64,000 bases of DNA from Squalus acanthias (taxonomy: Eukaryota). How positions within the stretch are numbered: position 1 is the stretch's first letter; each line of letters begins with the position of its first letter. The notes below the pieces were generated by a model. The model searched no databases and was not told the DNA's origin. It saw only the letters and a list, made by a program, of their open reading frames with translations. Positions 5,191-63,624 of this stretch are shown piece by piece. Both the position numbers and the translations under genes were made by a program. Where the stretch lies: the NCBI GenBank assembly GCA_030390025.1, contig CM059430.1, forward strand, positions 73,346,001 through 73,410,000, read 5' to 3'.

Positions 5191-5489
5191 GAGAATTTGA
5201 ATCCAGTTGAACTAATATCGGGAAATAAAATGCTGGTTTCAGTAACAGTGACCGTGAAGCTATTTGATTCTCATAACAACCCAACTGGTTGATTCATGTC
5301 CTTTAGGGATGTAAATATGCCGTCCTTAACCGGTCTTGCATTTAGGTGACTCCAGTACCACATCAACCTGGGGGACTTTTAATTACCCTTGGATGTGTCC
5401 TAGTAAGCCAGTCAGTTTGATCAAATTAAGGATGGAGACTAAATGGCGGTTTTTCCCGCGATGCTCATGACGGGAAAATGAAAAAAAGA
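5191..5489 (+). mobile_element. LF-SINE-like SINE (head truncated)
   Basis: Body (atgtcctttaggga...gtgactccag...aagccagtcagtt) joined directly to a tail homologous to the LINE 3' end at 43230-43297. Confidence 0.7.
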
Positions 5490-24395: not shown

Positions 24396-25149
24396 TGGCC
24401 CAGAAATTAAACACGGAGCGTTCCTGCGGGGGTAAGGCTTCCCCGCGATATCTCACTGCGCGCCTACCTTTTCCCCCCGGGCTCACACGAAATTTAGTTT
24501 CAAGGCCATTCCCACATGCAGCTGTGCAGTGCTTGCGTGACCCACAGACGCAGTTCGTTCGTGCGAGCTCTGGGATCACGTGATTCAGTTAGAGCCAATG
24601 GCAGCACACCATCTTTCATTCATAGTTTTGACAGGAGAACTTTCAAAGCTATGAATACAACTTACCCCCAAAAGAACAGCTAAATCTCAATTAAATTTAA
24701 AAAAAACCATCACATTAATAAAATAACTATAGTTAAATAAATTAACCACTTTAAACAAAAAATTAAATTTTTGAAAAAATGTAAAATCTTTTTAAAAGTT
24801 ATAAAAATAAACTTACCTTTCTTTAAAGTCTCTAAAAAAGATAAACCTGTTGACAAAAATTTAAACTAATACTTAATTAACTACTTACCTTGTTTAAAGA
24901 GGGTCTTACGCCTCCTTTGTTTATGTGTAAAATCTTCCATGCTTACCTGCGCGTTCAAAGCACTAAGTGCACTGCGTGCGCGCAGCCTGTAGCGCGCACG
25001 CGGTTCACTTAGGAACCGCCCCCTTTTGAGTTCACAAAGTGCCGGTTTCCCGCGCATGCGCAGTGCACGCTGGAAACCGGCAATTGGAGACCTAAAACGC
25101 GAGAGTACACAATGCGTACTCTCGCGTATTAGGTCTAATTTTCGGGCCA
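24396..25149. mobile_element. Harbinger-derived MITE (~750 bp), copy A, in CR1-B RT
   Basis: TIR TGGCCCAGAAATTA / TAATTTTCGGGCCA. The CR1 frame (AIYI|NDLD) is interrupted exactly here. Confidence 0.85.
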
Positions 25150-26496
25150 ATAATGATCTAGACGAGTGAATTGGATGTAATATCTCCAAGTTTGCCGACG
25201 ACACAAAGCTGGGTGGGAGTGTGTGCCGTGAGGAGGATGCCGAGAAACTCCAGTATGATTCGGACAGGTTGGGTGATTGGGCAGAAGCATGGCTTATGCA
25301 ATATAATGTGGATAAATGCGAGGTTAACCACTTTGGTGTCAAAAATAGGAAGGCAGATTATTATCTGAATGGCAATAGATTGGAAGAAGGGGCAGTGCAA
25401 CGAGAACTTTGTGTCCTTGTGCACCAGTCGCTGAAGGTAAGCATGCAGGTGCAGCAGCCGGTTAAGAAGGCAAATGCTATGTTGGCCTTCGTAGCGAAAG
25501 GGTTCGAGTACAGGAACAAGGATGTCTTGCTGCAGTTCTACAGTGCCCTGGTGAGACCACATCTTGACTATTGTGTGCAGTTTTGGTCGCCTTATCTGAG
25601 GAAGGATGTTCTTGCCATGGAGGGAGTGCAGCGAAGAATCACCAGGCTGATATTTGGGATGGCAGGAATGACGTATGAGGAGAGATTGGGTCGATTGGGG
25701 TTATACTCGCTGGAGTTTAAAAGAATGAGAGGGGATCTCATTGAAACTTCTAAAATTCTAACAGGACTAGACAGACTAGATGCAGGGATGATGTTCCCGA
25801 TCGCCCGAGTGTCCAGAACCATGTGCCACATTACTACGGATAAGGGGTAAGCCATTTAGGACTGAGATGAGGAGTAATTTCTTCACCCAGAGAGTGATGA
25901 ACCTGTGGAGTTCTCTACCACAGAAGGCAGTAGAAACCAATTCGTTAAATATATTCAAGAAGGAGTTGGATATATTTCTGAAATCTAAAGGGATCAAGGG
26001 ATATGGAGAGAAGGCAGGGACAGGCTACTGAATTTGGATGATCAGCCATGATATCATTGAATGGCGGAGCAGGCTCGAGGGGCTGAGTGGTCTACTCCTG
26101 CTCCTATCTTCTATGATTGATGGGAGTTTTTGTGACTGGATGGCTGTTTCCACTGGGGTTCTGCAGGGCTCAGTACTAGGTCCCTTGCTTTTTGTGGTAT
26201 ATATCAATGATCTTGACTTGAAGACAGCAGATATGATTTTGAAGTTTGCAGATGATACTAAAATCGGCTGTGTGGTTCATACTGAAGAAGGAAACTGTAG
26301 ACTGCAGGTAGATAGCAATACATTGATCAGGTGGGCAGCGCAGTTGCAAATGGAATTGAATCCGGAGAACTGTGAGGTAATGCATTTGGGGAGGGAGAAA
26401 AGGAAAGGGATACACATTAACTGGTAGGACACTGAGTAGTGCAGAGGAATAAAGGGACCTTGTCGTACATGTCCACAGATCCCGGAAGGTAGCAGT

Positions 26497-27060
26497 CATA
26501 GATTCATAGAGTCATAGAGTTATACAGCACTGAAAGAGGCCTTTCGGCCCAGCGTGTCCGCACCGGCCATCAAGCCCTGTCTATTGTAATCCCATTTCCA
26601 GCACTTGGTCCGTAGCCATGTATGCTATGGCGTTTCAAGTGCTCATCTAAATGCTTTTTGAAAGTTGTGAGGGTTCCTGCCTCTACCGCCCTTTCAGGCA
26701 GTGAGTTCCAGATTCCAACCACCCTCTGGGTGATAAAGTTTTTCCTCAAATCCCCTCTAAACCTCCTGCCCCTTACCTTGAAACTAAGCCCCCTGGTTAT
26801 TGACCCCTCTACTAAGGGGAAAAGTTCCTTTCTATCTATCCTATCCATGGCTCTCATAATTTTGTAAACCTCAATCAGATTCCCTCCCAGCCTTCTCTGC
26901 TCTAAGGAAAACAACCGCAGCCTGTCCAGTCTCTCTTCATAGCTGAAGCGCTGCGGCCCAGGTAACATCCTGGTAAATCTCCTCTGCACCCTCTCCAATG
27001 CAATTACATCCTTCCTATAGTGTGGCGACCAGAACTGCACACGTAGAACTGCGCACGCAT
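26497..27060 (-). mobile_element. CR1 3' fragment 'C' inserted antisense in CR1-A
   Basis: ORF 26570-27130 (VQFWSPHYRKDV...NFITQRVV) and a repeat tail catagagt at 26497. Confidence 0.88.
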
Positions 27061-29148
27061 CCAAGTAGATATAGTGGTTATGAAAAACATATGGAGCCTT
27101 GATCTTTGTTAGCTGTGGCATAGAATACAAGAGCAGGGGGGTTATGCTTCAACTGTATAAAACACTAGTTAGGCCTCAGCTAGAGTACTGCGTGCAGTTG
27201 TGGTTACCACATTACAGGAAATAAGGGATTGCACTAGAGAGAGTACAGGGGTGATTTACAAGGATGTTGCCGGGTGTAGAGAATCTTAGCTATGAAGAAA
27301 GACTGGATAGGCTGGGTTTGTTTTCCTTGGAACAGAGGAGGCTGCGGGGAGACCTTATTGAGGTGTATAAAATTATGAGTGGCATAGATAAAGTGAATAG
27401 AGCGGATCTATTTCCCTTAGCAGAGGCGTCATAAAACAGGGGGTACAGGTTTCAAATAATTGGTGGAAGGTTTACAGGGGATTTGAGGGGCAATTTGTTC
27501 ACCCAAAAGATTGTGGGGGTTTAGAACTCACTCCCTGAAAGGGTGGTGGAGGCAGGGACCCTAACCACATTTAAAAAGTACTTGGATGTGCACGTGGGAC
27601 GCTGTAACCTGCAGGGTTGCGGACCAAGATCTGGGAAGTGGGATTAGGCTGGATAGCTCTTTGTTGACCGTTGCAGACATGATTGTCCGAAATGGCCTCC
27701 TTCCGTGCTGTAACTTTCTATGATTCTATGATTCTAGGTCATGAAGCTTCTTTGGCACTGGAGCCAGGTGGTGGGGGCGAAACTGCTGTCAGTGACGTTC
27801 ACGATGATCTACTCCCACATCATTCTTTCTGGAGAGCCTCCGAGCAGCTGTGGTTAGTGGGCCTGTCTTGCAGTGCTGTGCCACTGAACAAAGCTGGACA
27901 GCTGCATGCAAGACCCAGGGTGGCCTTTCTTTGGCTTGCTGAGCCATTTTTTTACTGCTGAGGCATTATTTTCCATTTTTTTAAATTAGGAACTTAACTC
28001 ACGTTTAACAGCTAAGCATTCATATTTGGGAATTCTTTTTAACGTTAAATATTTGTTTAAAAGCCAGAAACTGTTGAAAACTGCATAGTTTCACTTCATT
28101 TTAATATGTATTGCTTCTGTATGCATGGCCCTTTTAATACTCAGACCCCATGAATGCCCACAATTTCGTGCCATTTCCATAGCCTCACATGCAGAGGCTA
28201 TGGAAAACTGCAATGCCGCTCCTGCACACGAACTTCGCCTCGGATGCCGTCAGTAACGCCACCAGGTTGGCGTTGCGTCGCGTTGCACGGCATGTAAGTG
28301 CTGCGCCTACAATCTCCATTCCCCCAGACGAATTTTGCTCCATTAGTGTTATCAACATTTTCAGCTGCCGTTAACCCCAATTGTTGTTGACACCAGCAAC
28401 TTTACTGGCTAAATCAAGTTTTTCCCCTTACCTCTTTTATCACGCTTTTGGTCATCTGACATAACCTCCCCTAAAATGCTTCCGTGCCATTTTTTGTGAA
28501 GCGCATTGGGGCGTGTTATTATGTTAAAGGCGCTATATGAATATATGTATTGTTCTTTTGTTGTTGTTGCTGTTGATTCCAATGTTATTTTGTTTGCTGT
28601 TGTGAGAGTTAAGTTGAGGTGTGTATCTGTTGTATATTGAAATGGGTTATTCCATACATGTAATTAGTTGTTACGGTATTTCATATTTTTCCGATTCTAT
28701 ATTTTTCAAAACACAGCATAGGTCGTTTTTTCTGATGAAATGCTTAGAGTTCATTTACTTCGAACTGCAATGTTCCGGTAATTATCAATTATCGTCGATG
28801 TGGTTTAACTTTTAACGTCACTTTCGCTACAAGATAATTTTCAACGCCCAAACAGTAGCAGTCCAACAGCTTTTGATTTCCGTTGTAATAATTTTGAAAT
28901 ATAAAAGTGACGAACTTCAATTATATTTTGGTAACATGGATCCAACCACTATCAGTTCGTCTTTCCATTATTTTGATAAAATGTAGGGTGATAGGAAGGT
29001 ATTTAAATGATTTGGGAGGTGGTGTTGGCTTCAAAAGCTCAACGTTTTGAATAGCAGACCCGGATCACCATTATTGTCAAGGAAACATGCTGAATGTGAT
29101 TAATAAAGTGTTAAAAGGGTACACCTGAATGTAAAAGTAATAAAACTT

Positions 29149-31724: not shown

Positions 31725-34700
31725 TGCTAATGGAGGGGGACTTGGAGGTGGTGGTGTTCCCATGCGCCTGCTGCTCTTGTCCTTCTAAGTGGAAGAGGTC
31801 ACGGGTATGGGAGGTGCTGCTGAAGAAGCCCTGTCGTGTTGCTGCAGTGCATCTTGTAGATGGAAAACACTGCAACCACGGTCGGCCTGTGGTAAAGGGA
31901 GTGAATGTTTAAGGTGGTGGATGGGTTGCCAGTCAAGCGGTCTGCTTTGTCCTGGATGCTGTCGAGGTTCTTGAGTGTTGTTGGAGCTGCACTCATCCCG
32001 GCAATTGTAGAGTATTCCACCACTCTCTTTACTTGTGCCTTATAGATGCTGGAAAGGCTTTGGGAAGTCAGGCGGTGAGACACTCGCCGCAGAATACATA
32101 GCCTCTTACCTGCTCTTGTTGCCACAGTATTTATCTGGCTGGTCCAATAGTCAATTTTGACTCCCCAGGATGTTGATGGTGGGGGATTCGTCGATGGTAA
32201 TACCGTTGAATGTCAAGGGGAGGTGGTTAGACTCTCGCTTGTTGGAGATAGTCATTGCCTGGCACTTCTGTGGCGCGAATGTTACCTGCCAATTATCAGC
32301 CCAAGACTGATCGTCCTCCAAGTCCTGTTGCATGCGGTCATGGGCTGCTTCATTATTTGAGGAGTTGTGAATGGCGCTGAACACTGTGCAGTCATCAGAG
32401 AACATCCCCATTTCTGAGCTTATTTTGGAGGGAAGGTCATTGATGAAGCAGCTGAAGATAGCTTGGCCTAGGACACTGCCCTGAGGAACACCTGCAGCAA
32501 TGTCCTGGGGCTCTGATGACTGATCTCCAAACACCACAACTATCTTCCTTTGTGCTAGCTAAGGCTCCAGCCAATGTAGCGTTTCCCCTCCCCCGATTGC
32601 TGTTGACTTCAGTTTTACAAGGGCTCCTTCATGCCACACTCGGTCAAATGCTGCCTTGATTTCACGTGCATTCAATCTCACCCCACCTCTGGTATTCAGC
32701 TCCTTTGTCCATGTTTGGACCAAGGCTGTAATGAGGTCGGGCGCCGAGTGTTCTTTGCGGAACCAAAACTGGGCATCCGGAAGTAGGTTATAACTAAGTA
32801 AGAGCCGCTTGATAGCACATTCGATTAAACCTTCCAGCACTTAGGTGATGATTGCGAGTTGACTGATTAGGCAGTAATTGGCCAGGTTGGATTTGTCCTG
32901 CTTTTTGTGGACAGGACATAGCTGGGCAGTTATTCCACGTTGTCAGTTAGGTGCCAGTGTTGTAGCTGTACTGGAACAGCTTGGGTAGAGGCGCGGCTAG
33001 TTGTGAAGCACAAGTCTTCAGCACGATAGCCGGGATGTTATCGAAGCGCAGTGGGCCAGAAATTCGGGTCGGAGGCTTCCCGCGGGCTCAAGCCCCCTAC
33101 CTGCACTTACATAGCGCGCCTGCCGTTGTGCTGTGGGCATGCGTGGGATCCCGATCATGGGCCTCCTCCAGCTGCCTGTGTACAGTGCTCGCATATCCCA
33201 GGGGCGCAACTATTTTCCAGGGTCCCCTGGGATCACGTGGGCCATGGGGAGCCAATCGGAGCAGGGAATCTCCATTCATAGATTTGACAGGAAGACCTGT
33301 CAAATCTATGATAGAGATCGGCCCCAAAACCTAAGTAAAACTTCAAATACATTTTAAAAAACATCACATTTTTAAAATAACTATAAATTATATAAATCAT
33401 CTATTTTTTAAAAAAAATTAAATTTTTGAAAAAATTAATAAAATGTTTTAAATGGGGTAAAACTAAACTTATCTTTCTTTAAAGTATTTAAAAATGATAA
33501 ACTTTTTGAAAAAATGTTTCAATTTTTCTTAATTCACCTCTTACCTTGTTAAAAGCAGGCCTTGCCCCTGCTTTTTCCACGCACAGCTGCTAGGGACTTA
33601 CCCGGACGGAGAAACCTGTAAAAAAGCGGAAGTTCGATGCGTACGTGCTGCCTCTCAGGCGCACGCGGTTGACCTGCGAACCCCTTCCTTCAAGAGAACG
33701 GAAGTTCCGGTTTCCAGTGCATGCGTGAAACTGGCACTTCCGTTTGCCCTAAGTGTGAGTACAGAGCACGTACTCACCCATAGGGAACGGCATTTCAGGG
33801 CCAATGTCTTTGCTGTATCCTATGCGCTATGCCATTTCTTGATATAACGTGGATTGAATCGAATGTCTGAAGACTGGCTTCTGCGGTGTTGGGGATCTCA
33901 GGAGTAGGCCGATATGCATGTAGTCCTGTGTTGCTGCTTCCCCAGTTTTGCACCACACTTTTAGATCCGCCTGGTGATGCTCCTGGCATGCTATTCTACA
34001 CTCCTTGTTGAACCAGGGTTGGTCCCCTGGCTTGATGGCAAAGCTAGAGTGAGGGAAATGCCAGGTCATGAGGTTACAGATTATGGTGGAATACAATTCT
34101 GCTGCTGCCCCTCAGCGCCTCATGAAGGCCCAGTTTTGAGCTGCCAAATCTGTTCTGAATCTATCCCATTTAGTACGGTGGTAGTGCCTCACAACACGAT
34201 GGAGTGTGTCCTCACTGTGAAGACGGGACTTCCTCTCCAGAATGGTTCAACAAGGATTGTAGAATAGCATGCCAGGAGCAACACCAGGCGTCACTGCTAC
34301 TAATACTGTCATGGACAGATTCATCTATGATAGGTAAGGACGTTTTCCCCTCGTGTTGATTTTCTCACCACCTGTCAGTTATGTTCTTCAGGACACGGCC
34401 GTCTCGGTCAGTAGTTGTTCTACGGAGCCACCTTTGGAATTATGAAGTCCCCCACCCAGAGGACATTCTGTACCCTTGCTACTCTCAGTCCTTCTTCCAA
34501 GTGGTGTTCATGGAGGAGTACTGATCGATCAGCTGAGGTTGGGCGGTAGGTGGTAATCAGCAGGAGGGTTTCTTGTCAATTCTTGACCTGAAGCCATGGG
34601 GTCGGGAGTCAATGTTGAGAGTTCCAGGACCACTCCTTCCCGACTGTTTACCAATATGCCACGACCCCTGGTGGGTCTGTCCTGCCAGCGGGACAGGAAA

Positions 34701-35229
34701 CACCCAGGGATTGTGATGGAGGAGTTTTGGACATTGACTGAATGGTATGATTCTGTGAGTATGATTATATCAGGCTGTGGCTTGACTAGTCTGTGGTACA
34801 GCTCTCCCAATTTTTGCACAAGCCGTCAGCGGTTGGTGAGCAGGACGTTGCAGGGTTGACTGTGCCGGTGCCGCGGTCGATCCACTTTCATTCTTTTTAG
34901 TAACAATTTTGTTATAACTGATTGGCTTGCTAGGCCATTCCAGAGGAAAGTTATGAATCAACCATATTGCTGTGGGTCTGGTATCAAATAGAGGCCAGAC
35001 CAGGATAAGGACAGCAGATTTCCTTCCCTAATTGACATTAATGTACCAGATGTGTTTTTTTACGACAATCCAATAGTTCCATGACATTAGTAATTATTCC
35101 AGATTTATTTAGTTAACTGAATTGAAATTCCCCAGCTACCGTGGAGCGATTTGAATTCAGCTCGCTGAACCATTAGTTTAGGCCTTTGGATTAATAGCCC
35201 AGTGACATTACCACTACGCTACCGTTCCC
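31725..35229 (-). mobile_element. tRNA-headed CR1-group LINE with LF-SINE-like 5' region, copy 1
   Basis: Head GGGAACGGTAGCGTAGTGG at 35229, then the SINE body, APE (KLGEL..PDIIILTES) and RT ([23 protein letters not shown]). Confidence 0.85.
33052..33803. mobile_element. Harbinger-derived MITE copy B
   Basis: TGGGCCAGAAAT ... ATTTCAGGGCCA, same internal layout as copy A, interrupts the LINE. Confidence 0.82.
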
Positions 35230-38483: not shown

Positions 38484-39420
38484 GGGCACAATTTTGCGAC
38501 CCCTACGAGTGCGTATGAGGTGCGCACGTGCCTCTAAGGGCTGCGCAAGTTCCGGGTTTAGACAAGCGAAGCATATGCGCGAAAACCCGGAATTTGCGTT
38601 CAGTCAAGAATTCTCTTGACAAATCATCTGCATTGCTGGGAAAAGGGCCTCCGCGGGTGGATAATTGCACTATTTGCCCAATTTCTGCCCGCGGAATGCT
38701 TGTGAAATTCTGACGCCTGGTAAAAACAGGCGTAAGACTTGCTTTTACCAGAAAATAGATTAAAAAATAGAAAAATAAAATGTTATCACTCATTTATACA
38801 TTACAAACCCTGTTCAATAAGGTAAGTTTATTTTCTGGCCCATTAAAACACGTGGCCCTGAATTTCCAATAGGAGGCTTCCTGCGGGCGGATGCCTCCGA
38901 TAGGAAAAAAATCTACGAACTTTCCTGCTGGTTCCATTGATCTCGAGGGTTGCGATCCTGTGTCACGCCTCTTCGAAATATGCTGAGGCCCAGGTATCCC
39001 AGGAGCGCATGCAGTTCGCAAGTGTCCCTGCGATCACGTGGGCCAGGCAAACCAATGAAAGAAGTTTCATACTTTTGACAGAACCCTACGCACAGAACTG
39101 TCAAAAGTATGAATGGGGTCAAATTTAAAAACACAATAAAACAATAAATATATTAAAAAATACATATTTTAAATTAATTAAAAATACATGCATTTATATA
39201 TTTTAAACAAAAATGTAATTTTTTGAAAAAAATAAGAAAATGTTTTTACGGGCTAAACATAATCTCACAATTTTAAAAGTATTTTTAATTTATAAATCAG
39301 TGATCAAATTTTATTTTTCTATTTTTTTAAACTCTTATGCTGGTAAAAGCCGGCCTTACGCTGGCTTTTACCAGGCAAAATAATTTGACAGGCTTTCAGC
39401 CGGGGAAAGTTGTGCCAAAA
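38484..39420. mobile_element. Two partial MITE copies (38484-38845 reversed; 38852-39420 forward, truncated)
   Basis: Homology to the two halves of copies C and D. Confidence 0.75.
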
Positions 39421-39921: not shown

Positions 39922-40372
39922 GTGTCAGCTGTGGCTCAGTTGGTCGCGCACACGCTTTTGATTCAAGAAGGTTGTAGGTCCAAGTCTCCAGGGACTTGAG
40001 CACACAAAAAGCTAGGCTGACACTCCAGTACAGAGCTAAGGGAGTGCTGTACTGTCGGAGGTCCCGTCTTTCGGATGAGAAGTTAAACTGAGGCCCGCCT
40101 GATCTCTCAAGTGGATGTAAAAGATCCCATGCCACTATTTCGAAGAAGAGCTAGTGGAGTTATCCACGGTGTCCTGGCCAATATTTATCCCTCAACCAAC
40201 ATAAAAAAAAAAGATTATCTGGTCATTATCACATTGCTGTTTGTGGGAGTTTGCTGTGCGCAAATTTCCCACATTACATCAGTGACTACATCCAAAAGTA
40301 CTTCATTAGCTGTAAAGCGCTTTCAGACGTCCGGTGGTCGTGAAAGTTGCTATATAAATGCAAGTCTTTCTT
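39922..40372 (+). mobile_element. Deu-domain tRNA SINE (SacSINE1-like), well preserved
   Basis: A box TGGCTCAGTTGG, B box-like GGTCCAAGTC, Deu core, and tail gctatataaatgcaagtctttcttt. Confidence 0.82.
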
Positions 40373-40477
40373 TATTTTGCTAAAATGAGATATTCTTGTG
40401 CAGGCAGAGGGCATAGCTGAGGTACTAAATGAGAATTTAGCATGTGACTTTACTGGAGGAGGCAGAAGCGATATTGG

Positions 40478-43297
40478 ATGGGATAGCATAGTAGTTATGT
40501 TACTGGACTAATAATCCAGAGGCCTGGAATAATTATCTTTTAGACGTGAGTTAAAATCCCACCAAGGCAGTTAAATAATTCTGGAATGAAAAGCTAGTAT
40601 CAGTAATGGTGACCATGACGCTATCAGATTTTCGTAAAACCCCAGCTGGTTCACCACGGAAAGAAAACTGCCATGAACCTGTTCTGCTTTATATGTCACT
40701 CCAGACCCACAGCAAAGTAGTTGACCCTTAAGTGCCCTCTGAATATGGCCTAGCAAGCAACTCAATTGCATGAAACCGCAACGAAAAACAATAATCAGAA
40801 TTAAACCGGAAAGACCACCCAGCATTGACCATGGCACTGGCTTCGGACACGACAATGGCACACCCAAACAAGTCAACACTGCAATGTCCACGTCACTAAC
40901 ATCTGGGGATTATTACAAAATTGGGAGAGCTGTTCCACAAACTAGTCAAGCAATAGCCTGACAGAGTCGTACTGACAGAATGATACCTTTCAGCCAATGG
41001 CCCAGACTTCTCCATCACCAGCCCTGGGTATGTCCTGTCCCACCGGCAGGACAGAGCAATGAGACAGAATGTACTTTGAGTGGGGCACTTCAAAGTTCAG
41101 CACAAAGAGTGGCTCGATAGCACCACTTCTGACCGAGCTGGCCAAGTCCTGAAGGAAATAGCTGCCAGACTGGACATGAGGCAGGTGATCAGAGAAGCAA
41201 CACCAGCACGAGACGAAGTCTCGTCTTCATTGATGTCATCGTCCATCGTGTTGTGTGGCATTGCCTCTGTGCTAAATGGGATAGAATAAAAACAGATCTT
41301 GCAGCTCAAAACTGGGCATCCAAGACAAGCTGTGGGCCGTCAAAAGCGGCAGAAATGTGCAGAAGAGCATGCCAACAGAAGCAACAGGCGAAAATATAAC
41401 GTGCAAACCTGTGGAAGCTGCAACAAAGCACTACATGCATGCAGGGGAAGCAACATGCTATAGAGAGAGCCAAACGATCCCACAATCAACGGATCAGATC
41501 AAAGCTCTGCAGTACTATAACATCCAGTTGTGAGTGGTAGAGCACAATTAAACAACTAAGGGGAGGGTGACGCTCCATAAATATCCCCAGGCTCAATGAT
41601 GGCGGAGCCCAGCACGTGAGTGCAAAAGACAAGACAAGGTGTCTGCAACCATCTTCAGCCAGAAGCTCCGAGTGGATGATACATATCGATCTCCTCCTGA
41701 GAACCCCACCATCACAGAAGGCAATCTTCAGCCGCTTCGATTCACTCCAAATGTTATCAAGAAGGGCTGAATGCACTGGATGCAGCAAAGGCTATGGGCC
41801 CGGAGAACATTCCCGCTGTCGTGCTGAAGAATTGTGCTCCAACATTAGCCGCGCCTCAATCAAGCTGCTTCCGAAAAACTACCACACTGGCATCTACCCG
41901 ACAATGTGGATAACTGTGCAGGTATGTCCTGTCCATAAGAGGCAAGGCAAATCCAATCAGGCCAATTACTGCCCCATCAGTCTACTCTCAATTATCAGCA
42001 ACGTGATGGAAGGTGTCCTCGACAGTGATATCAAGCGCACTTTCTCACCAATAACCAACTCCCTGATGCTCAGTTTAGGTTCAGCTAGGAGCACTCAGGT
42101 CCAGAACTCATTACAGCCGTGGTCCAAACATGGGCAAAAGATCTGAATTCCAGAGGTGAGGTGAGAGTGTCTGCCCGTTGACATCAAGGCAGCAATTTGA
42201 TCGAGTGTGGCATCAAGGAGCCGTATTAAAATTGAAGTAAATGGTAATCAGCGGGAATACACTCCATTGGCTGAAGTCATAGCCAGCACAAAGGAAGATG
42301 GTTGTGGTTGTTGGACATAATCTCAGCCCCAGGACATAGCTACAGGATATCCTCAGGGTAGTGTCGTAGGCCGAACCATCTTCAGCTGCTTCATTAACGA
42401 TATTCCCTCCATCATAAGGTCAGAGGTGGGGATGCACGCTGATGATTGTACAGTGTTCAGTTCCATTCGCAACTCCTCAGCAAGACCTGGACGACAATCA
42501 GGCTTGTGCTGATAAGTGGCCAGTAATATTCGTGCCACCCAAGTGCTGGGCAATGGCTATCTCCAACAAGTGTCTAACCACCGAGCACTGACATTCAACG
42601 GTATTACCATCGCCGAATTCCCCACCATCATCACCTTGGAGCGACACCATTGACCAGAAACTTAACTGGATCAGCTATATAAATGCTGTGGCAACAGGAG
42701 CAAGCCAACAGCTGGGTATTCTGCGGCGAGTGTCTCACCTGCTAACTCCCCAAATCATTTCACCATCTACAAGGCACAAGTCAAGAGTGTGATGGATACT
42801 CTCCAATTGCCTGGATGAGTGCAGCTCCACCAACACTCAAGAAGCTAGACACCATCCAGAAAAAAGCAGCCCGCTTGAATGCCACCCCATCCACTACCTT
42901 AAAAAACATTCACTCTCTCCACCACCGGCGCCCCGTGGCTGCAGTGTGCATCATCTACAAGATGCACAGCAGCAATGCGCTACAACTTCTTCTGCAGCAC
43001 CTTCCAAACCATGACCTCAACACCTAGAAGAACAGGGTCTGCAGGTACATGGGAACACCATCACCTGAAAGTACGCCGCCACGTTACACAGCATCCTGAC
43101 TTGGAAATATATCGCCGTTTGTTCAGCTTCACTGTGTTAAAATCCAGGAAATCCCTGCCTAACAGGAGCACCTTCACCGGACGGATTACAGTGGTTAAAG
43201 AAAAGCGGCTCACGACCACCTTATCAAAAGCAATTGGGATGGGCAATAAATGTTGGCCTTGCCAGCGACGCCCACATCACAGGAATGAATAAAAAAA
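40478..43297 (+). mobile_element. tRNA-headed CR1-group LINE with LF-SINE-like ends, copy 2 (both ends present, internal deletions)
   Basis: tRNA-like head, SINE body, APE, RT (NYCPISLLSIIS, IKAA.DRVWH, QGSV.G), and tail gggcaataaatg.tggccttgccagcgacgcccacatc...gaataaaaaaa. Confidence 0.88.
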
Positions 43298-43609
43298 TCC
43301 TCAATAAATATGTTATTTTTAATAACTATTTTAAAACCTCTTAATCCAGGCTAATATTTGCATAAACTCATTTAAAATGTATCAGCCTAATTTTGGCTTC
43401 GGAGATGTTTTATTTAACCCTTATATAGGCCCTAAGCATGCATTTACCAGCCGTCAGATTTGCGTGGTCAATTGCTCGGCAAATAGCCCATTTAAGCGCT
43501 AACAATACTCATTTTCCAGGCGTTTTGAATGCCTTGCCGAGATTTTCAAAGGGAATATGACGGCATGCTGAGAGAGTACGCCGTCGCAGACACAGCACTT
43601 TCAGAGCCA

Positions 43610-44289
43610 ATATGCTTGGGCAGTGTCAACATGGATTTAAGAAAGGCACGTCATCTTTGGCAAAGCTAATGGAGTATTTTGAGGTTATAACTTGCAGGGT
43701 AGATAAGGTGGGGGGGGGGGGGGGGGGCGGGGCGGTTAGTGGTTGTAGTTTTTTTGTTTTTTAAACAGCATTCGACAAGGTGCCACAAAAGAAGTTGTTA
43801 CACAAAATTATGGCTGATGGGATTGAGGGTAATATATTAGCATGGATTGAGGCTTGGTTATCGGACAGCAAACAGAGAGTCGGAATATGTGGATTATTTT
43901 CCGGTAAGCAGCTTATAACTAGTGTGGTACCACAAAGATCAGTGCTTGGCTCTCAGGTATTTACAATCTATAGCAATTAATCAGCTGAGGGGATCGAGTG
44001 TAATGTATCCAAGTTTGCAGATGATACAAATTTAGGTGGAAAGTGACCTGTGAGAAGGACACAAAAAGGCTGCAAAATGGATATAGACAGGTTAAGTGAG
44101 TATCCAAGAGTATGGCAGATGGAATGTCATGTTGAACGTGTGTAGTTATCCAATTTGGTAGGAAAAATAGAAAAGCAGAATATGATTTCAAATGGTGAGA
44201 GACTGCGAAATGATGTTATTCAGATGGAGCTGGGTATCCTTGTACGTTAATCGCAGAAATTTAACATATAGGTACAGCAAGCAATTGGT
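43610..44289 (+). mobile_element. CR1 RT fragment
   Basis: FDKVPQKKLL...VPQRSVLG...KFADDT. Confidence 0.8.
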
Positions 44290-46469
44290 TTGGTCCCCTG
44301 GCTTGATGGTAATGGTAGATTGCGGGATATGCCGGGCCGAGGTTACATATTGTGGTGGAATACAATTATGCTGCTGCTGATGGCCCACAGCGCCTCATGG
44401 ATGCCCAGTTTTGAGCTGCTAGACCTCTTCTGAATCTATCCTATTTAGCATGGTGGTTGTGGCACTCAACAAGATGGAGAATGTCTTCAGTCTGAAGACG
44501 GGACTTCCTCTCCACAAGGACTGTGCGGTCGTCCCTGCTAAAAATGCTGTCATGGACAGATCCATCTGCGAGAGGCAGATTGGTGAGGACGAGGTCAAGT
44601 TTGATATTCCCTAATATTGGTTGTCTCACTACCTGCTGCAAGCCCAGTCTGGCACCTTTGTCCTGCAGGGTTCGTCCGGCTCGGTCAGTAGTGCTGCTAC
44701 AGAGAAACTCTTGGTGATGGACACTGGAGTCCACAAACCAGAGTACGTTCTGGGCCCTTGGTACCCTCAATGGTCATTCCAAGTGGTGTTCAACGTGTTG
44801 AAGTACTGATTCAGCAGCTGATGGAGGACGTTAGGTGGTAATCGGAAAACGGTTTCCTTGCCCATGCTTGACCTGAAACCATGAGACTTACTGGGGTCCT
44901 GAATCAATGTTGATAACACCCAGCACCACTCCATGTCGACTGTATACCAGGGTGCCGCCACCTTTGGTGGGTCTGTCCTGCGGTGGGACAGGACATACGC
45001 AGGGATGGTGATGGAGGAGCTTAGGATATTCGATAAAAGTTATGATTCTCTGAGTATGACTATGTCAGGCTGTTGCTTGACTAGTCTGTGGGACCAATTT
45101 TGGCACAGTCCCCAGATCTTAGTCAGGAGGACTTTGCAGTGTCGACTGGGCTGCGTATGCCATTGTCGTGTCCGACGCCGGTGCCGAGGTCGATGCCGGG
45201 TGGTCCGTCCAGTTTTTATTCTTATTAGAATCATAGAATTACAGAATGATTACAGCACAGAAGGCGCCTATTCGACCCGTCGAAACCGCGCTTGTTCTCT
45301 GCAAGAACTCTTCAGCTAATCACACGACCCCGACCTGTCCCCATAGCCATACATTATTTTCCTTCATGTACTTATCCAATTCCTTTTTGAAAGCCACGAT
45401 TATATATGCCTCCTCCACGCTTTCAGGCAGTGCATTCCAGATCCTAACCACTCGCTGCATAAAAAATGTGACCTCATGTCCCCTTTGGTTCTGCTGCCAA
45501 TCAACTTAAATCTGTGTCCTCATGTTCTCCGGTTTTCTACTTTTCCGACAATGGGAATAGTTTCTCTCCATCTACTCTCTTTAGACCCATAATGATTTTG
45601 AACACTTCTATCAAATCTCCTCTCCACCTTCTCTGCTGTAAGAAGAACAACCCCAGCTCTCCAGTCTATCCACGTAACTGAAGTCGCTCATCCCTGGAAC
45701 CATTTTTGTAATTATTTTCTGCACTCTCTCTAAGGCCTTCACATCCTTCCTACAGTGTAGTGCCCTGAATCGGACACTATAATCCTGTTGAGGCCGAACC
45801 TGTGTTTTATAAAGGTTCATCATAACTTCATTGCTTTTGTAGTCTATGTCTCTATTTTTAAAGCCCAGGATCCTGTATGCTTTTTAACCGCTTTCTCATC
45901 TGCCCTACCACCTTCAATGATTTGTGTACATATACCCATAGGTCCTTCTGTTCCTGCACACCTTTTAGCGTTGTACTCTTTAGTTTAATTTCCTCTCCTC
46001 GTTCTTCCTCCGAAAATGTATTACTTCACACTTTCCTGCGTTACATTTCATTTGCCACGTGACCGCCCATTCCACCAGCCTGTCCATGTGCTCTTGAAGT
46101 CTATCACTATCCTCCTCACTGTTCACTATATTTACACGTCTTGTGTCATCTGCAAATTTTGAAAATTGTGTCATCTGCAAATGTTGAAACTATTATTGTT
46201 TTTCGTAGCAGTTTGTTACAACTGAGTGGCTTGCTCGGCCTTTTCAGAGTGCATTTAAGGGTCAACCAAATTTCTGTGGATCTGGAGTAACATATGATCC
46301 AGACTGGGTAAGGACGGCAGATTTCCTTCCCGAATGGGCAATATTGAACCAGATGGGTTTTCACAACAATCTAATAATTTCTTGATCACCATTACAGTTA
46401 CTAGTTTCTGGATCATTAGCCGAGGCCTCTAGATTACTAGTCAAGTAACATAACCGCCATGCCGTTCCC
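44290..46469 (-). mobile_element. tRNA-headed LINE copy 3 (5' part), interrupted by a CR1
   Basis: Head GGGAACGGC at 46469, SINE body, then APE VLLTKIWGL...QQPDIVIL. Confidence 0.82.
45227..46192 (-). mobile_element. CR1 3' fragment inserted in LINE copy 3
   Basis: SKFADDT and the CR1 tail, TSD TTATT (45222-45226 / 46193-46197), and a 25-bp tandem duplication at its truncated 5' end. Confidence 0.85.
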
Positions 46470-46589
46470 GTTAGTCGAGTTAGTAATTGTTGCAATGAAA
46501 TAACTTATTGTTAAGCAACCTCCATTCTCTTCTGGTTCGCAACAGCATGTTTCGAGTAAGCATGGTTACAGTGTATACTACTTACATAA

Positions 46590-46930
46590 TGCAGTGCAGC
46601 ATCTTGCCAAGGCTTCTTACACAACACCTCCCAAACCCGAGAAATCCACCACATTGTAGGAAACTGCATCAGGCGCATTGCAACACCATCAACTGCTAGG
46701 TCCCCTGCGAATCAGACACCATTCTGCCATGGACATATATTGTCCTTCCTTTTTCTGACTGGTTTAAAATCCTGGAACTCCCTACCATAATAGCATTGAG
46801 AAGGACCTTAACCACACGGTCTGCAGCAGTAATAGAAGAGGAAGGACCACCATCTTCTCAGGGCACTTTGGAATGACAATAAATACTGTTCTTGCCAGTG
46901 ATGGCGACATTCTGAAGATGAATAAAAATA
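46590..46930 (+). mobile_element. 3' end fragment of the tRNA-headed LINE family
   Basis: Homologous to 42960-43297. Confidence 0.7.
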
Positions 46931-47639
46931 AATAAATAACCACTGGTTTATCGTGAGAGTTCTGCAGACCTGAGACAAGCCTGAACAGATAGCCAGCAAT
47001 GGTAAAGTTATCAAGATCATGATCAAAAACTGATAAACCGACCATCCTAAACGTCTATGCAAGTCCACTGCTCTCTCACCGTTTACAAATCTTCAGAAAA
47101 TTCTTCCTTAAATCAAAGTCCGTTTACATTTACTTGTTTTGTTACTGCAGTCTCCATTCCGTGAAGCATTTTGGAAGTTTATATGTAATTAAGCTACATC
47201 TATACAGGTTGCTGCTATTAATGTTGATGTTGTATGGTCTTTCTGCACATGTTGCCATTCACGCCTTCTGTCCCTTGTCCTATGCTTTTATATTGACATG
47301 TACCAGACGGTCTATACCGACGTGTTCCTGCACTTTGCCATTCCTCAATGCAGTAATATCTTGACCATTTTAGAAAGCTTTCTTGCGTCGATCGCCAACC
47401 ACGTAAATCTGTTGAAATCCAATATTTTGACTGTCGCCAATTGTCTCAGTGTGAGAGAGTGAAAAACTATTCGCCCATTGCAATCTCAAGAAACCTCTCT
47501 GATTCCCAACTGACTATCATTCCATTTTCCCCCAGCGATGATCTGGGAAGGTCCATTGACGTATTCATCAGCTCCTATGGTAACTGCTGACCTCTGAACT
47601 CGCCTTCCTGGTCCGCATATTAGCTGATCATGTTAACGG

Positions 47640-49135
47640 TTTGTTTTTCTCAGATACCACCCCCCTCAAATCTGCCGTTTCCTCACTCGTCAAATGTAAC
47701 CACGTTGACCCATTTGACTTTGCCCTCTGCCGTATCATCTCCCAACCCGGTTTCCTCTCCAATGTCATTGATTAGTTCAACATGCCCTTCTGTCTCATAG
47801 CCCCATGTTTCAACCCCTTCAATAAGGTTGCCGGAACAGCACTGAAATGGCCCTCAACAAAGTCACAAATTAAATACTCTGCGACTGAGATTGTGGTAAG
47901 CGATCCCTCTTCATGTTTCTGGACCATTGACACAGTTGATCACACCGTCCTCCTCCAATGCCTCTCGTGCGCTGCTTAGCTAGGTGGGACTGCACTCGCC
48001 TAGTTGCATTCTTATCTATCCTGTCGTAGCCAGTGAAGCACCTGCAAAAGCTTCTCTCACGCTCCTGCACCATTATCTCTGGAGTCCCCCAAGGATCAAT
48101 CCTTGGAGCCCTCCTGTTTCCCATCGTCATGCTACCTCTTCACGACATCATTCAAAAACACATCAGATTCTACATGAATGATGAAGAAACACAGCTCTAC
48201 ATCATTACCACATCACTCGATCACTCGACTTTCTCCAAATTGTCACATGCTTGTCCGAAATCCAGTACTGGATGAGCAGAAATTTCCATTAAACTAAATA
48301 CTGGGAAGACTGCTGCCATTCGGTGCCTGACATAAAATCAGTTTCCAAGCTACCGACTCCATTCCTCTCCCTGGCAAATTTCTGAAGCTCAACCAGAAAT
48401 TTTGCAACCTTGGTATCGTATTTCACCCTGAGAGGAGCTTCTGATCACATATCCACGCCATCAGGGAGATCGCTCACTTCCACCTCTGTAACATCGCCCG
48501 ATTCTGCACATATCTCAGCTCATATGCTGCTGAATAACTTATCCATGCCTTTGTTATCTCTAGACTTCACTATTCCAACGCACCCCTGGCTAGCCTCCCA
48601 TCGCCCACCCTCAATAACGTTGAGCTTATCGAAAAGTCTGCTGCCCATATCCTAACTCGCACTAAGTTCCCTTCATCCATTACCACTTTGCCTGCTGACC
48701 TTCATTGGCTCCTGGTTTAGTAACGGCTCGCTTTCAAAATTATCAGTCATGTCTTCAAATCCCTCCATGGCCTCGCCACTACCTATCTCTTTAACCTCCT
48801 CCAGCACTACAACCCTCCGCGATTTTTGCGCTCCTACAATTCTGGCCTCTTGCTAATCCAGATTTAATTGCTCCACCATCGGCGGATGTGCCTTCAGCTG
48901 CCAAGGCCTTAAACTCTGGAATTCCCTCCCTAATCTTTCCCGCCTCTCTACCTTTCTTTGTTCCTTTAAGACGCTCCTTATAACCTACCTCTTTGAACAC
49001 GCTTTTGGTCATCTGCCCTAATATCAACCTATGCGGCACAGTGTGAAATTTTGTTTTTTAATACTGCTGCGAAGCCCTTGGGACGTTTTACTACGTCAAA
49101 GGCGCTATATAAATATAAGTTGTTGTTGTTCTTCT
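47640..49135 (+). mobile_element. L2-like LINE 3' fragment
   Basis: DTVDHTVLL, SGVPQGSILG, degenerate YADDTQLY, and tail ggcgctatataaat...ttgttgttg. Confidence 0.85.
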
Positions 49136-55565: not shown

Positions 55566-56634
55566 CTGCAGCTCTATTTACAGAAAGTTAATTATATTAT
55601 AGGACAGATTGAGATCGGTTCTACATTTTTAAATTGAACCGTGATACTTTACCGGGAACCTATTTCCAAAATCCAATAGTGTTTTAATAAATTGATGTTT
55701 ATAAATAGTGCTTATATATATTTGTATTTTGATACCTTCATATCAGCGTATGTTATAATTATTCTCAATGCAGAATTGCTAATGACCCCCAACAAGAATG
55801 TTATATTTGGATTGGGTGCATAATTTTATTAAAATTCGTAGCTCTCCGTAATGCCCGTATGTTTTTGACTATCCATTAATATATCATATTTACTCGTTTC
55901 CAGTTCGGTCTAATTATGATTTGTACAGTAGAAGTTTTGCTCTTTTGGACTGCTTTACGTAGATTTTTTTTCTCTCTCGCGAATTGCATTTTGAACTTTA
56001 TAACAGGAGGATTATACATACGCACATGAAAACCCTCATTGACCTTCCTGACTCTTAAATATATCCAGCCCTACTGTCTCTGAGAGTTCTGTCTTTCTCC
56101 AAATCTCACTTATTTTGCAACTCCTGTCCATTGACCACATGACTGGCAGCGCTGTCTTTAGTCGTATAGGCACTATACTCTGGAATTAAATCATTAACCA
56201 ATCGGCTTCTGCACCTCTCTTTGCCCCTTTAACAGTAGCTTGAAACCGCCACTTTAATCAAGGTTTTCGGAAGCTCTCTAGGTAAAGCCAACTTTTGCAC
56301 CCTGCCAATTTTTGACTTAATACACTCCTGTGAAACATAGAATCAAAGAATAATACAGCACAGTAGGAGGCTATTCGGTCCATCGTCTCTGTGCGGTCTC
56401 TTCGGTGGAGCTATCCAATTGACCCTACTCATCCGCTTCTTTCCTCATAGCCCTGTTATGTTTTCCCCTTCAAGTATTTGTCAATCCCCTTTAGAAAGTT
56501 TCTATTGAATCTGATTCCACCTCTTTCCAAGCAGTGCAGTCCAGATCACAACAACTTGCTGTGTAAAAAATATTTCCTAATGTCGCCTCTGGTTCATTTG
56601 CTAATCAACATAAAACTATGTACTCTGGTAACTG

Positions 56635-56742
56635 TTTTTTTTTCCAGTTCTGACGAAAGGTCTTCGACCTGAAACGTTAACTCTGTTTCTCGCTCCACGG
56701 ATGTTGCCTGGCCTGCTGAGTTTTTCCAGCGTTTTCTGTTGT
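56635..56742 (+). mobile_element. ~108-bp hammerhead-ribozyme retroelement (Penelope-type tail only)
   Basis: Intact core AGTT-CTGACGA-A-AGGTC-ttc-GACCT-GAAA-CG-TT-AACT (56646-56682). TSD tactctggtaactg / tactcaggtaaccg. Confidence 0.8.
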
Positions 56743-58008
56743 TACTCAGGTAACCGACCCTTCTTCAACTGCAAAGAGTTTCTCTTTAGTTACTTTATGA
56801 AAACAATTCATGATATTAGCACATCTATCAAACCTGCTCTTAACCTTCTCTGCTCCAAGGAAAGCAACTACATCTTCTACAGTCTCTCTACATCTCTGAA
56901 GTCCCTCATCCTCGTACCATTATCTTCTGAAATCTCTCTAAGGCCTTGATATCTTTGCTAATGCGTGGTGCCCAGAATTCAGCACAATACTCCAGTTCAG
57001 GCCTAAACAGTTTTTCACAATGTTTCAGCACAACTTCCTTGCTTTCGTACTCTATGCCTCTATTAATAAAGCCAAGTTTCCCATCTGCTTTTTACCATCC
57101 TTCTCAACTTCTGCTGTCATCTACAAATATTTGTTACACATACCCCCAGTCTGCCTGTTCCTTTAAACGGTTTAAAATGTATAATTTAGGTTATATTGCC
57201 TCTCCTCATTCTTTGAACGAAAATGTATTACTTCACACTTCTCTGCATTACTTTCCATCTGCTATGTGCCTGCCTATATCCTCCCGAAATCTGTTACTAT
57301 TATCGACATTGTTTTTTACAATTCGGAGTTTCATGTCATCTGCAAACTCTGAAATGATACCCTCTTTACCCAAGTCCAGGTCATTAATATATATCAAAAA
57401 GAGCAGTAGTCCTAATACCGACCCCGGAAAACACAATTGGATTCTATTCCTCCAGTCTGAGAAACTAACGTTCACCACTATAATGCGGTTTCTGTTCCTT
57501 AGCCCATTTCGTATCAACGCTGCCATTGTCTCATTAATTCCATGGGCTTTAACTTTGCTAAGAATTCCAGTATGAGCAACTTTGTCAAATGCCTTTCGAA
57601 AATCCATATACACAACAGCAAATGTACTTCCATCATCAACGTTTTCGTTACTTCATCAAAAATTCGATTAAGTTCGTCAAACATAATTTGCCTTTAACAA
57701 ATCCGTGTAGACTTTCATTAATTCATCCATAGTTTTCAAATGCCAATTAAATTTGTCCTGGATTACTGTTCTCAAATTATCCGCACCATCGATGTTAGGC
57801 TGAATGGTATGTAATATCAGGGTTCATCCCTCTCCCCTTTTTTAAACAGCGGTTTAACATTTGCAAACCTTTGAGTCCTCCGGCACCACCCAATATATAA
57901 ATAGTATAGGAAGATTGTGGCCAAAGCCTTGGCAATTTCCCCCCTTACTAGAATGCGTCCCAATTGGACCGAATGACTTTTCTATTTTGAGGACTGCCAA
58001 TCTGTTAT

Positions 58009-58766
58009 TGGCCCAGATATTCCGATCACTGGCTTCCCGCTGGCGGAGGACTGCGATCTGGAAAAATCTGCTCCCTTACCTGAGGGCTCCCGGGAGGCGC
58101 ACAGTTCCGATGCTGGGCCTCTCCAAACTGCCGGTGCGCAAGGCCCAGGTATCCCAGAGGCGCAGGTAGTTCGCAGCGTCCCTGGGATGACGTGGGCCAT
58201 GGGGAGCCAATCAAAGAAGGGAATCTCCCTTCATACATTTGACAGGAAGACCTGTCAAATATATGTATGGGGATCACCCCCAAAACATAGTAAAACTTTA
58301 AATAAATTTTAAAAAACCATGATATTTTTAAAATGACTTGAAATTACAAATAAATTAAATATTTGAAACAAAACTTTCAATTTTTGAAAATAATATTTAA
58401 GTTTTTTACGGTGAATAAAATAAACTTACCTTTTTTTAAGTATTTTTAAATGATAAATCAGTGTAAATTTTTAAAAAACTTTTTATCAACTATTATCCTT
58501 GTAAAAGTAAGCCTTACCCCTGCTTTTAACAGGCACAAGAATTGTAAGGGTTTGCTGCGAACGGAGGGCCTCCAAAAAGCGGATCTATCCGCGCGCAGAG
58601 CCCCGTCTCCCGGGCAGCCGGAGGATCTGTCAAGAGCTTTCATGAAAGATCAGAAATGCCGGTTTCCAGCGCATACGCAGTCCATGCCTGAAACCGGCAT
58701 TTCCGATGTCCCTACGGGTGTGTACACAGCCTGTCCCCACCCGTAGAGATCGGATTATCCGACCCA
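58009..58766. mobile_element. Harbinger-derived MITE copy C
   Basis: TGGCCCAGATATTCCGATC ... GATCGGATTATCCGACCCA, same internal layout as the other copies. Confidence 0.85.
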
Positions 58767-62899: not shown

Positions 62900-63624
62900 T
62901 GGGATGGATTTTCCAATCGGAGGCTTCCTGCGTGCGGATGCCTCCGATCGGAAAAAAATATATGCACTTACCTGCTGGCTCCATAGTTCCCGAGACTTGA
63001 GATCCTGGGCCTCTGCTCTACGAAATGCGCAGAGTCCCAGGTATCCCAGGGGCGCATGCGGTTCGCAAGCGACCCTGGGATCACGTTGGCCATGGGGAAC
63101 CAATCAAAGAAGGGAATCCTCCTTCACACATTTGACAGGTCCTCTGTTCACGGATCAGACAAAAGTATGAATGGTGATCAATTAAAAACACAGTAAAACA
63201 TTCAATATATATTAGTTAACAACACATTAAATTAAATATTTTAAAAAAAATTAAATTTTTTGAGAAAATCATTAAAGCTTTTGAGCGGGTCTAAAATAAA
63301 CTTACCTTTTTTAAAGCTATTTTAAAATTATAAATGAGTGAAAACATTGTTTTTCAAACACTTATCCTGGTAAAAGCAGGTCTTACGCCTTCTTTTAGTA
63401 AGCGTAAGATTTTTAATGGATTTCAGCTTGCGGAAGTTGTGCTGAAAGCGCAACTCCCTGCTCGCGGAAGCCCTTTGCCCGGGCAGGCGGATGATGTGTC
63501 AAGAGGATTCTTGACAGATCGCAAGTGCCGGGTTTTAGTGCATGCCTGAAATCGGCACTTGCAAGGCTCCTACGGGTGAGTAAACACCTCCTACTCACCC
63601 GTGGGGGTCCGAAAATCCGACCCA
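62900..63624. mobile_element. Harbinger-derived MITE copy D
   Basis: TGGGATGGATTTTC ... GAAAATCCGACCCA, with AAT on both sides of the GG...CC core. Confidence 0.82.

What the first reader, a model, noticed from the sequence alone, without database searches (positions are those of the whole stretch)
40478..43297. tRNA-headed, ORF1-less LINE that looks like the autonomous parent of an LF-SINE-like SINE
Seen: three independent copies (40478-43297 +, 35229-31725 -, 46469-44290 -) start with the same tRNA-like head carrying A/B box-like motifs. Each continues through ~300-400 bp of SINE body and runs straight into an APE ORF with no room for ORF1; copies 1 and 2 also retain RT. The stand-alone SINE at 5191-5489 has the same body but jumps, right after ...aagcca(c/g)tcagtt, to the LINE's last ~70 bp. 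Known: this body and tail match my recollection of LF-SINE, the coelacanth/tetrapod SINE exapted as enhancers and exons. SINEs normally borrow only a LINE 3' tail, though LINE 5' UTR contributions to SINE bodies have been described. Inference: the SINE is an internal-deletion derivative of a LINE that itself carries a Pol III-type head, so a SINE-LINE unit was mobilised as one element.
Basis: partly seen in the sequence, partly recalled or inferred. Interest (0 to 1): 0.8.

Follow-up and report, generated by a model that had tools for sequence, protein, structure and literature searches.

The report
Shark retrotransposon with tRNA-type promoter head
A known shark-and-ray jumping gene (Zenon) begins with a transfer-RNA-like head normally found only on non-coding short repeats, which suggests that a protein-coding retrotransposon may be switched on by the cell's small-RNA polymerase.

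Summary
The observation largely holds. Three decayed copies run tRNA-like head, ~230-nt body, A-rich linker, then APE about 380-400 nt from the start, leaving no room for ORF1. The family is elasmobranch Zenon: copy 2 matches published SquAca_Zenon-1 at 87 of its first 100 nt (by eye). All 7 published shark/ray Zenon consensuses, built outward from RT, start with this head; the 3 hagfish/coelacanth ones do not. So head plus LINE is one inherited unit. The family and its lack of ORF1 are published; I found no paper remarking on the head.

Corrections: copy 3 is split by a 964-bp insertion of another LINE, copy 2 has an insert and no tail, the short element at 5191-5489 has no head, and copy 1 has no TSD. 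LF-SINE could not be tested and I doubt it.

Best mechanism: an internal Pol III promoter drives the LINE. This is inferred only; my test for missing T4 terminators pointed that way but was not significant (P 0.07-0.32). Whether the short form came from the LINE, or the LINE captured a SINE head, is unresolved.

The parts
40476..40564 (+). Copy 1 tRNA-like head (A box region, anticodon-like stem-loop, long variable region, decayed B box)
   Evidence: Rfam tRNA 21.1 bits, E=0.019, best of 4227 models; alignment
40565..40795 (+). Copy 1 body (5' UTR shared with the short element), ending in an A-rich linker
40796..43240 (+). Copy 1 decayed single ORF: linker, APE from about 40880 with internal deletions, RT, C-terminal domain; end approximate
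   Evidence: tblastn with APE-RT homologs; translations; alignment
43232..43297 (+). Copy 1 3' UTR and AATAAA/poly(A) tail; the part shared with the short element
34884..35229 (-). Copy 2 head and body; best-preserved head, intact A box, B box with one mismatch
   Evidence: 87 of first 100 nt equal to SquAca_Zenon-1 by eye
33795..34883 (-). Copy 2 linker and APE region
33043..33795 (-). Unrelated 753-bp repeat inserted in copy 2
   Evidence: related copies near 24.6-25.0, 39.0-39.4, 58.1-58.8, 63.0-63.6 kb
31731..33042 (-). Copy 2 RT and C-terminal region; no 3' tail
   Evidence: RVT_1 E=1.2e-12
46192..46469 (-). Copy 3 head (with ~65-nt deletion removing the B box) and body
45228..46191 (-). 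964-bp 3' fragment of another LINE family inserted into copy 3's A-rich linker
   Evidence: short AATAA-type duplication at its ends, not above chance (P=0.43)
44287..45227 (-). Copy 3 linker and APE; ends before RT
46520..46932 (+). Fourth family member: 3' fragment with C-terminal coding region, 3' UTR and A-rich tail, head-to-head with copy 3; start approximate
5191..5489 (+). Short non-coding form: body joined to LINE tail; head missing in this copy

Best explanation
This is the elasmobranch Zenon LINE (CR1 group, single APE-RT ORF, about 3.3 kb, poly(A) tail) whose 5' end is a tRNA-derived, SINE-type head fixed in the lineage before sharks and rays split. SHOWN: head, body, ORF and tail belong to one family unit. 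INFERRED: the A and B boxes work as an internal RNA polymerase III promoter, which every full-length new copy carries with it; the RNA is translated without a normal cap/AUG start; the protein binds the last ~60-70 nt and inserts the RNA by target-primed reverse transcription (established LINE mechanism). The short form keeps the 5' region and the tail, the two signals needed in cis, and is moved in trans. I put the unit structure at about 0.93, Pol III use by the full-length LINE at about 0.5, and deletion-derivative origin of the short form at about 0.55.
For: Same head-body-linker-APE order in 3 of 3 window copies that keep a 5' end, with similar divergence in head/body and ORF. 7 of 7 elasmobranch Zenon consensuses from 5 species start with the head, 0 of 3 from hagfish/coelacanth do (first 400 nt only). 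These consensuses were seeded on RT and extended 5'; the six families with a readable count list 59-2313 copies. The two B-box 10-mers searched occur 3+3 times in the supplement text held, and by eye all six are in elasmobranch Zenon entries. By eye the A box, B box, anticodon-like stem-loop and a variable-region hairpin persist across species while the hairpin's letters change. None of the sense-strand T4 runs is shared between aligned copies (0 in all 12 pair alignments), whereas 5 of 10 control pairs of other LINEs share at least one. All three window copies keep the first conserved ATG position out of frame with APE.
Against: No transcript evidence of any kind. T4 depletion is not significant: 10 runs in 7477 nt against 14.6 (mononucleotide shuffle, P=0.12) and 12.0 (dinucleotide shuffle, P=0.32); shared runs 0 against 1.3 expected (P=0.26), near-shared 1 against 4.1 (P=0.07); Zenon is T-poorer than the control LINEs. 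Per-copy tRNA scores are below Rfam's cut-off and head folding is not consistently better than shuffles (z -2.25, -0.45, +0.33). The AATAAA/poly(A) end fits Pol II equally well. No TSD around copy 1. A 3.3-kb Pol III mRNA would be unusual (own knowledge). Only one short copy is in the window and it lacks the head.
Confidence: 0.55

Rival explanations
1. Same fixed head-LINE unit, but the full-length LINE is made by Pol II (promoter in the body or read-through from host genes). The tRNA-like head is kept for another job, such as defining the RNA 5' end by tRNA-processing enzymes, or because it drives only the short form.
For: AATAAA plus poly(A) end; LINEs are taken to be Pol II transcripts (PMC5786205, part 4 read); T4 test not significant; cloverleaf-like stems kept across species by eye suggest selection on RNA shape, not only on the boxes.
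Against: A and B boxes kept in 6 of 7 consensuses; other Zenons lack the head (PMC6740152), so it replaced rather than joined an ordinary 5' end.
Confidence: 0.35
2. Opposite history (compatible with either polymerase): a tRNA-SINE that already used the Zenon tail came first, and a Zenon LINE captured its head and body by template switching; the short form is then the parent of the LINE's 5' end, not its deletion product.
For: The body ends in an A-rich linker before the coding region; the short copy is more diverged (68-72%) than LINE copies among themselves (73-78%); coelacanth and hagfish Zenons lack the head; module swapping by template switch is described (PMC4824008). From memory only, untested: the body resembles the amniote repeat AmnSINE2.
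Against: The LINE 5' end holds no SINE tail between body and ORF, so plain insertion of a whole SINE is excluded; Zenon is known to spawn internally deleted forms (PMC6740152). One short copy cannot date the family.
Confidence: 0.4
3. Chance: abundant SINEs inserted independently next to 5'-truncated LINEs, and consensus building merged them.
For: The window is dense with nested repeats; no TSD confirms copy 1 as one insertion; consensus extension was partly automatic.
Against: Colinear junction in 3 window copies and 7 consensuses from 5 species; no SINE tail at the junction; a later LINE insertion splits the junction in copy 3, so the junction predates it.
Confidence: 0.04
4. The short element is LF-SINE and this LINE is its autonomous parent.
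Against: Coelacanth Zenon consensus does not begin with this head or body (first 400 nt, low-confidence letters); PMC4255032 reports no similarity between 3' parts of the coelacanth SINEs and LINEs it studied; my own recollection of LF-SINE differs (no call).
Confidence: 0.08

Closest known systems
Elasmobranch Zenon LINEs (SquAca_Zenon-1/-2/-3, CarCar, RhiTyp, ScyCan, HypSab; Stuart et al. 2026, PMC13343379)
   Same: Same family: 5' sequence matches (87 of 100 nt by eye for copy 2), no ORF1, poly(A) tail, about 3.3 kb.
   Different: The paper does not mention a tRNA head or Pol III ('tRNA' 0 times in main text, and in the supplement text held); a partner short form did not appear in the passages read.
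Persaeus SIDE / lepidopteran Zenon (Wang et al. 2019, PMC6740152)
   Same: Short element made of the 5' region and the 3' end of a single-ORF Zenon.
   Different: Persaeus explicitly has no tRNA homology and no Pol III promoter; here the parent LINE itself has the head.
Bipartite-LINE SINEs: Bov-tA, AfroSINE, CoeSINE4, SINE2_Gav (Kojima 2018, PMC5786205)
   Same: tRNA head + LINE 5' UTR + LINE 3' tail.
   Different: There the head is added after deletion and only RTE and Vingi were found to contribute; the autonomous LINE has no head.
RTE-1_DAn and relatives
   Same: LINEs noted in passing to contain a tRNA-like sequence that hits many SINE2.
   Different: Different clade; position and function not described in the passage read.
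Zenon-mobilised tRNA SINEs of bivalves (PMC11481361)
   Same: SINEs borrowing a CR1-Zenon 3' tail.
   Different: Only tail homology is reported in the passages read.
Known shark SINEs HE1 (V-SINE, HER1 partner), SacSINE1 (Deu), CmiSINEs (CORE)
   Same: tRNA-headed shark SINEs.
   Different: Partners are HER1 and L2/CR1-4_DR-like LINEs, not Zenon; their sequences could not be compared (supplements unavailable).

Membership tests
Zenon (CR1-Zenon) LINE | No ORF1; single APE-RT ORF | tested here: met
   APE about 380-404 nt from the 5' end in 3 copies; APE and RT matches in order; feature stated in PMC13343379
Zenon (CR1-Zenon) LINE | Poly(A) tail rather than a microsatellite tail | tested here: met
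   A-rich ends at 43290-43297 and 46920-46932
Zenon (CR1-Zenon) LINE | RT groups with named Zenon elements | tested here: inconclusive
   Tree of 50 rows: the 3 family pieces group with 6 close unnamed homologs (100/100), apart from the 8 other window LINE pieces (100/99), but no row is a named Zenon
Elasmobranch Zenon family | Sequence identity to the published consensus | tested here: met
   A 16-nt and a 19-nt window motif hit 5 and 3 places, the rows shown all Zenon; 87 of 100 nt by eye; only the first 400 nt of each consensus visible
tRNA-derived SINE (SINE2) head | tRNA homology with A and B boxes at the 5' end | tested here: met
   Rfam tRNA best hit on 2 of 2 heads tested, both below gathering; unique A/B pair; boxes in consensuses
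tRNA-derived SINE (SINE2) head | Transcription by Pol III | not testable with these tools
   Indirect T4 test suggestive but not significant
SINE (for 5191-5489) | tRNA head present | tested here: not met
   This copy starts about 100 nt into the family sequence; it may be 5'-truncated
SINE (for 5191-5489) | 3' tail shared with a LINE | tested here: met
   E=0.0037; 75% over 61 nt to copy 1, 59% to the fourth fragment
LF-SINE | Sequence similarity to the LF-SINE consensus | not testable with these tools
   No consensus obtainable
AmnSINE2 | Sequence similarity to the AmnSINE2 consensus | not testable with these tools
   Resemblance recalled, from no call; the search listed two papers that name it once each
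Retroposed unit | One TSD pair around head-to-tail copies | tested here: inconclusive
   None around copy 1 (best 4 nt, P=0.89); copies are about 20% diverged from each other

The most novel reading that the evidence does not exclude
An autonomous, protein-coding LINE that has run for the whole history of sharks and rays on a tRNA-type Pol III promoter, with a 3.3-kb RNA kept free of Pol III terminators and translated without cap or in-frame AUG. It would be a standing SINE-LINE intermediate from which a tRNA-headed SINE arises in one deletion, and, if the recalled AmnSINE2 resemblance holds, the source of a repeat left in amniote genomes.
Probability: 0.4. Interest if true: 0.86.

Novelty: new variant of a known kind. 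Interest (0 to 1): 0.62.

Why it matters
LINEs are taken to be Pol II transcripts and SINEs Pol III transcripts, and SINE birth is modelled as a tRNA head being added to a LINE tail or to an already deleted LINE (PMC5786205). A lineage-wide autonomous LINE with a tRNA head offers another route, fusion first and deletion second, and makes two questions testable on an element with hundreds to thousands of long copies per genome: can Pol III drive a coding retrotransposon, and where do SINE bodies come from. It also matters for annotation: 5' ends of these LINEs can be counted as SINEs.

Tried and rejected
Whole-window Rfam and ARAGORN: no tRNA; only targeted scans found the heads. Folding of 3 heads and 3 tails: 2 of 6 had z below -2, not used as evidence. 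TSD search on 6 end pairs: only one reached P below 0.05 (fourth fragment alone, 7 nt, P=0.041, uncorrected). T4 depletion: not significant in four tests. Pfam on 11 pieces: 2 hits, both RVT_1. Looking for more DNA copies in bacterial/archaeal genome contigs: nothing by protein or DNA motif. Metagenome and viral contig collections stayed unchecked. Motif search of paper main texts: 0 papers; motif search of three further supplements: 0 hits (with one of its files not searched, 79); two supplements unavailable, including the SINEBase consensus file, which could bear on both the LF-SINE question and on whether the short form is already named. Protein searches gave no named shark protein, so the tree cannot name the clade. 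Rejected: chance SINE-next-to-LINE; the short element as a complete SINE copy; LF-SINE as an established identity.

Full report
What is there. The window is repeat-dense DNA. Self-comparison finds four pieces of one LINE family and one short relative: copy 1 (40476-43297, +), the only head-to-tail one, 2.8 kb with internal deletions; copy 2 (35229-31731, -), interrupted by a 753-bp unrelated repeat and lacking its last ~200 nt; copy 3 (46469-44287, -), interrupted in the linker by a 964-bp piece of another LINE and ending before RT; a 3'-only fragment (~46520-46932, +); and the short element (5191-5489, +). Head and body are 73-79% identical between copies, linker/APE 77-82% and RT 81%. The order head, body, A-rich linker, APE is the same in the three copies that keep a 5' end, and APE starts 381-404 nt after the first base, too close for an ORF1.

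The head. The decayed heads are missed by whole-window Rfam and ARAGORN. Scanned alone, copy 1's head gives tRNA as the best of 4227 models (E=0.019) and copy 2's gives tRNA as the only hit (E=3); both alignments start at the element's first bases, and both are under the gathering score. A scan for an A box followed by a B box with at most one mismatch in total finds one site in both strands of the window, copy 2's head.

What family. Copy 2 has RVT_1; the best long homologs are unnamed RT proteins, many of them APE-RT proteins of about 930-1200 aa, at up to 41% identity, with shorter fragments at 59-70%. In a 50-row tree the family's three pieces sit with those close fragments, apart from the window's eight other LINE pieces; no row is a named reference. 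The name comes from DNA. Stuart et al. 2026 (PMC13343379; abstract, passages, one methods section and parts of the supplement read) report Zenon in elasmobranchs, coelacanth and hagfish, always without ORF1 and with a poly(A) tail. Window motifs hit their Zenon consensuses, and copy 2 equals SquAca_Zenon-1 at its first 35 nt and 87 of its first 100 nt (by eye). The whale shark preprint also counts CR1-Zenon-like LINEs (10.1101/443036, passages).

The key outside evidence. Of the 10 Zenon consensuses in that supplement, the 7 from five sharks and rays all begin with this head and body; the 3 from hagfish and coelacanth do not (cells are cut at 400 nt). The consensuses were seeded on RT and extended towards the 5' end, so the head is linked to RT-bearing copies across genomes; six families list 59 to 2313 copies, the seventh cell is garbled. 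The two B-box 10-mers searched occur only six times in the supplement text held, whose consensus table runs to at least row 910, and by eye all six are elasmobranch Zenon entries. The word tRNA does not occur in that paper's main text or in the supplement text held. Chance SINE-next-to-LINE arrangements are therefore very unlikely, even though copy 1 shows no TSD.

The short element. It matches the body from profile position 104 on (E=8.8e-34) and then, without spacer, the last ~60 nt of the LINE (E=0.0037). By eye the LINE's coding region runs almost to that point, so the short form keeps roughly the 3' UTR. This copy has no head; whether the short family is a true SINE must be judged from other copies. 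It is 68-72% identical to the LINE copies where they are 73-78% identical to each other, which does not favour a young derivative, but one copy dates nothing. Deletion from the headed LINE and capture of a SINE's 5' part by the LINE predict the same junctions.

How it most likely works. Retrotransposition by the APE-RT protein acting on the 3' end is established LINE biology. The open step is transcription. I favour use of the A and B boxes as an internal Pol III promoter, because they are kept across five species at the exact 5' end of an element that shows no other known 5' module. Pol III stops at T4 runs (own knowledge), so I looked for their absence. The family pieces hold 10 sense-strand runs in 7477 nt, against 57 in 14081 nt of other LINEs, but the family is T-poorer and the deficit against shuffles is not significant (P=0.12 and 0.32). 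No run is shared by two aligned copies in 12 pair alignments, while 5 of 10 control pairs share one or more; against column shuffles of 2295 coding columns this gives P=0.26 for shared and P=0.07 for near-shared runs. The result fits Pol III but does not show it. A second oddity fits an uncapped RNA: in the three window copies the frame that follows the conserved ATG position after the linker is not the APE frame, and by eye the A-rich linker does not keep frame between species, so the protein seems to lack an ordinary in-frame AUG start. This is unexplained, and I found no canonical slippery site by eye.

LF-SINE. I could not obtain its sequence. Indirect signs are against it: the coelacanth Zenon consensus starts differently, and Naville et al. 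found no 3' similarity between the coelacanth SINEs and LINEs they examined (PMC4255032, passages). From memory, with no call behind it, the body recalls AmnSINE2 rather than LF-SINE; this is a lead only.

Against what is known. [quoted passage not shown] Bivalve SINEs use Zenon tails (PMC11481361, passages). Ten full-text searches returned no paper whose title, abstract start or passages read describe a tRNA-headed shark Zenon; most listed papers were seen only as listings, the library lacks most subscription journals, and Repbase/Dfam entries were not searchable, so the head may be noted there. Other papers consulted by passages only: PMC5753468, PMC5499810, PMC4824008, PMC3531059, PMC2000970, PMC3747384, PMC9004415, PMC11444175, PMC11979771.

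Verdict. A real, lineage-wide structure in an already catalogued family, apparently unremarked: a new variant of a known kind. The structure is well supported; the Pol III mechanism and the direction of descent are open; the LF-SINE link is unsupported. Interest 0.62, and about 0.86 if Pol III transcription of the coding element is shown.

Noticed in passing
window 44284-46932: Copy 3 (-) and the 3' fragment (+) lie head-to-head about 40-50 nt apart. An 8-nt near-repeat flanks the pair (1 mismatch, P=0.14), which would fit one 5'-inverted insertion holding head, APE and tail; a 7-nt repeat around the fragment alone (P=0.04) and its lower identity to copy 1 (68%) fit two separate insertions.
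   Followed up: partly
window 40796-40890, 34883-34840, 45227-45120: The first conserved ATG position after the A-rich linker is out of frame with APE in all three copies; the APE frame upstream is arginine-rich in copy 3.
   Followed up: partly
window 33043-33795, 24570-25060, 38995-39377, 58107-58753, 63042-63606: A non-coding repeat family of about 750 bp with an internal palindrome near 33268-33318; one copy interrupts copy 2. Type not determined.
   Followed up: partly
window 40150-40375 and 1053-1237: Another repeat ends about 100 nt upstream of copy 1, with a second copy near 1.1 kb; its tail looks like a Deu-SINE/L2-type tail (recalled, untested).
   Followed up: no
window 47900-48800: Decayed RT fragment of a further LINE type, C-rich on the sense strand, probably L2-like (label recalled).
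   Followed up: no
window 3857-4913, 14738-15920, 17964-19779, 22362-27736, 43414-44265, 56332-57942: Many decayed copies of other, purine-rich LINE families; eight RT pieces form a separate group in the tree.
   Followed up: partly
window 33968-34015 and 34243-34290: A 48-nt inverted duplicate (96%) inside copy 2's APE region, a local rearrangement.
   Followed up: no
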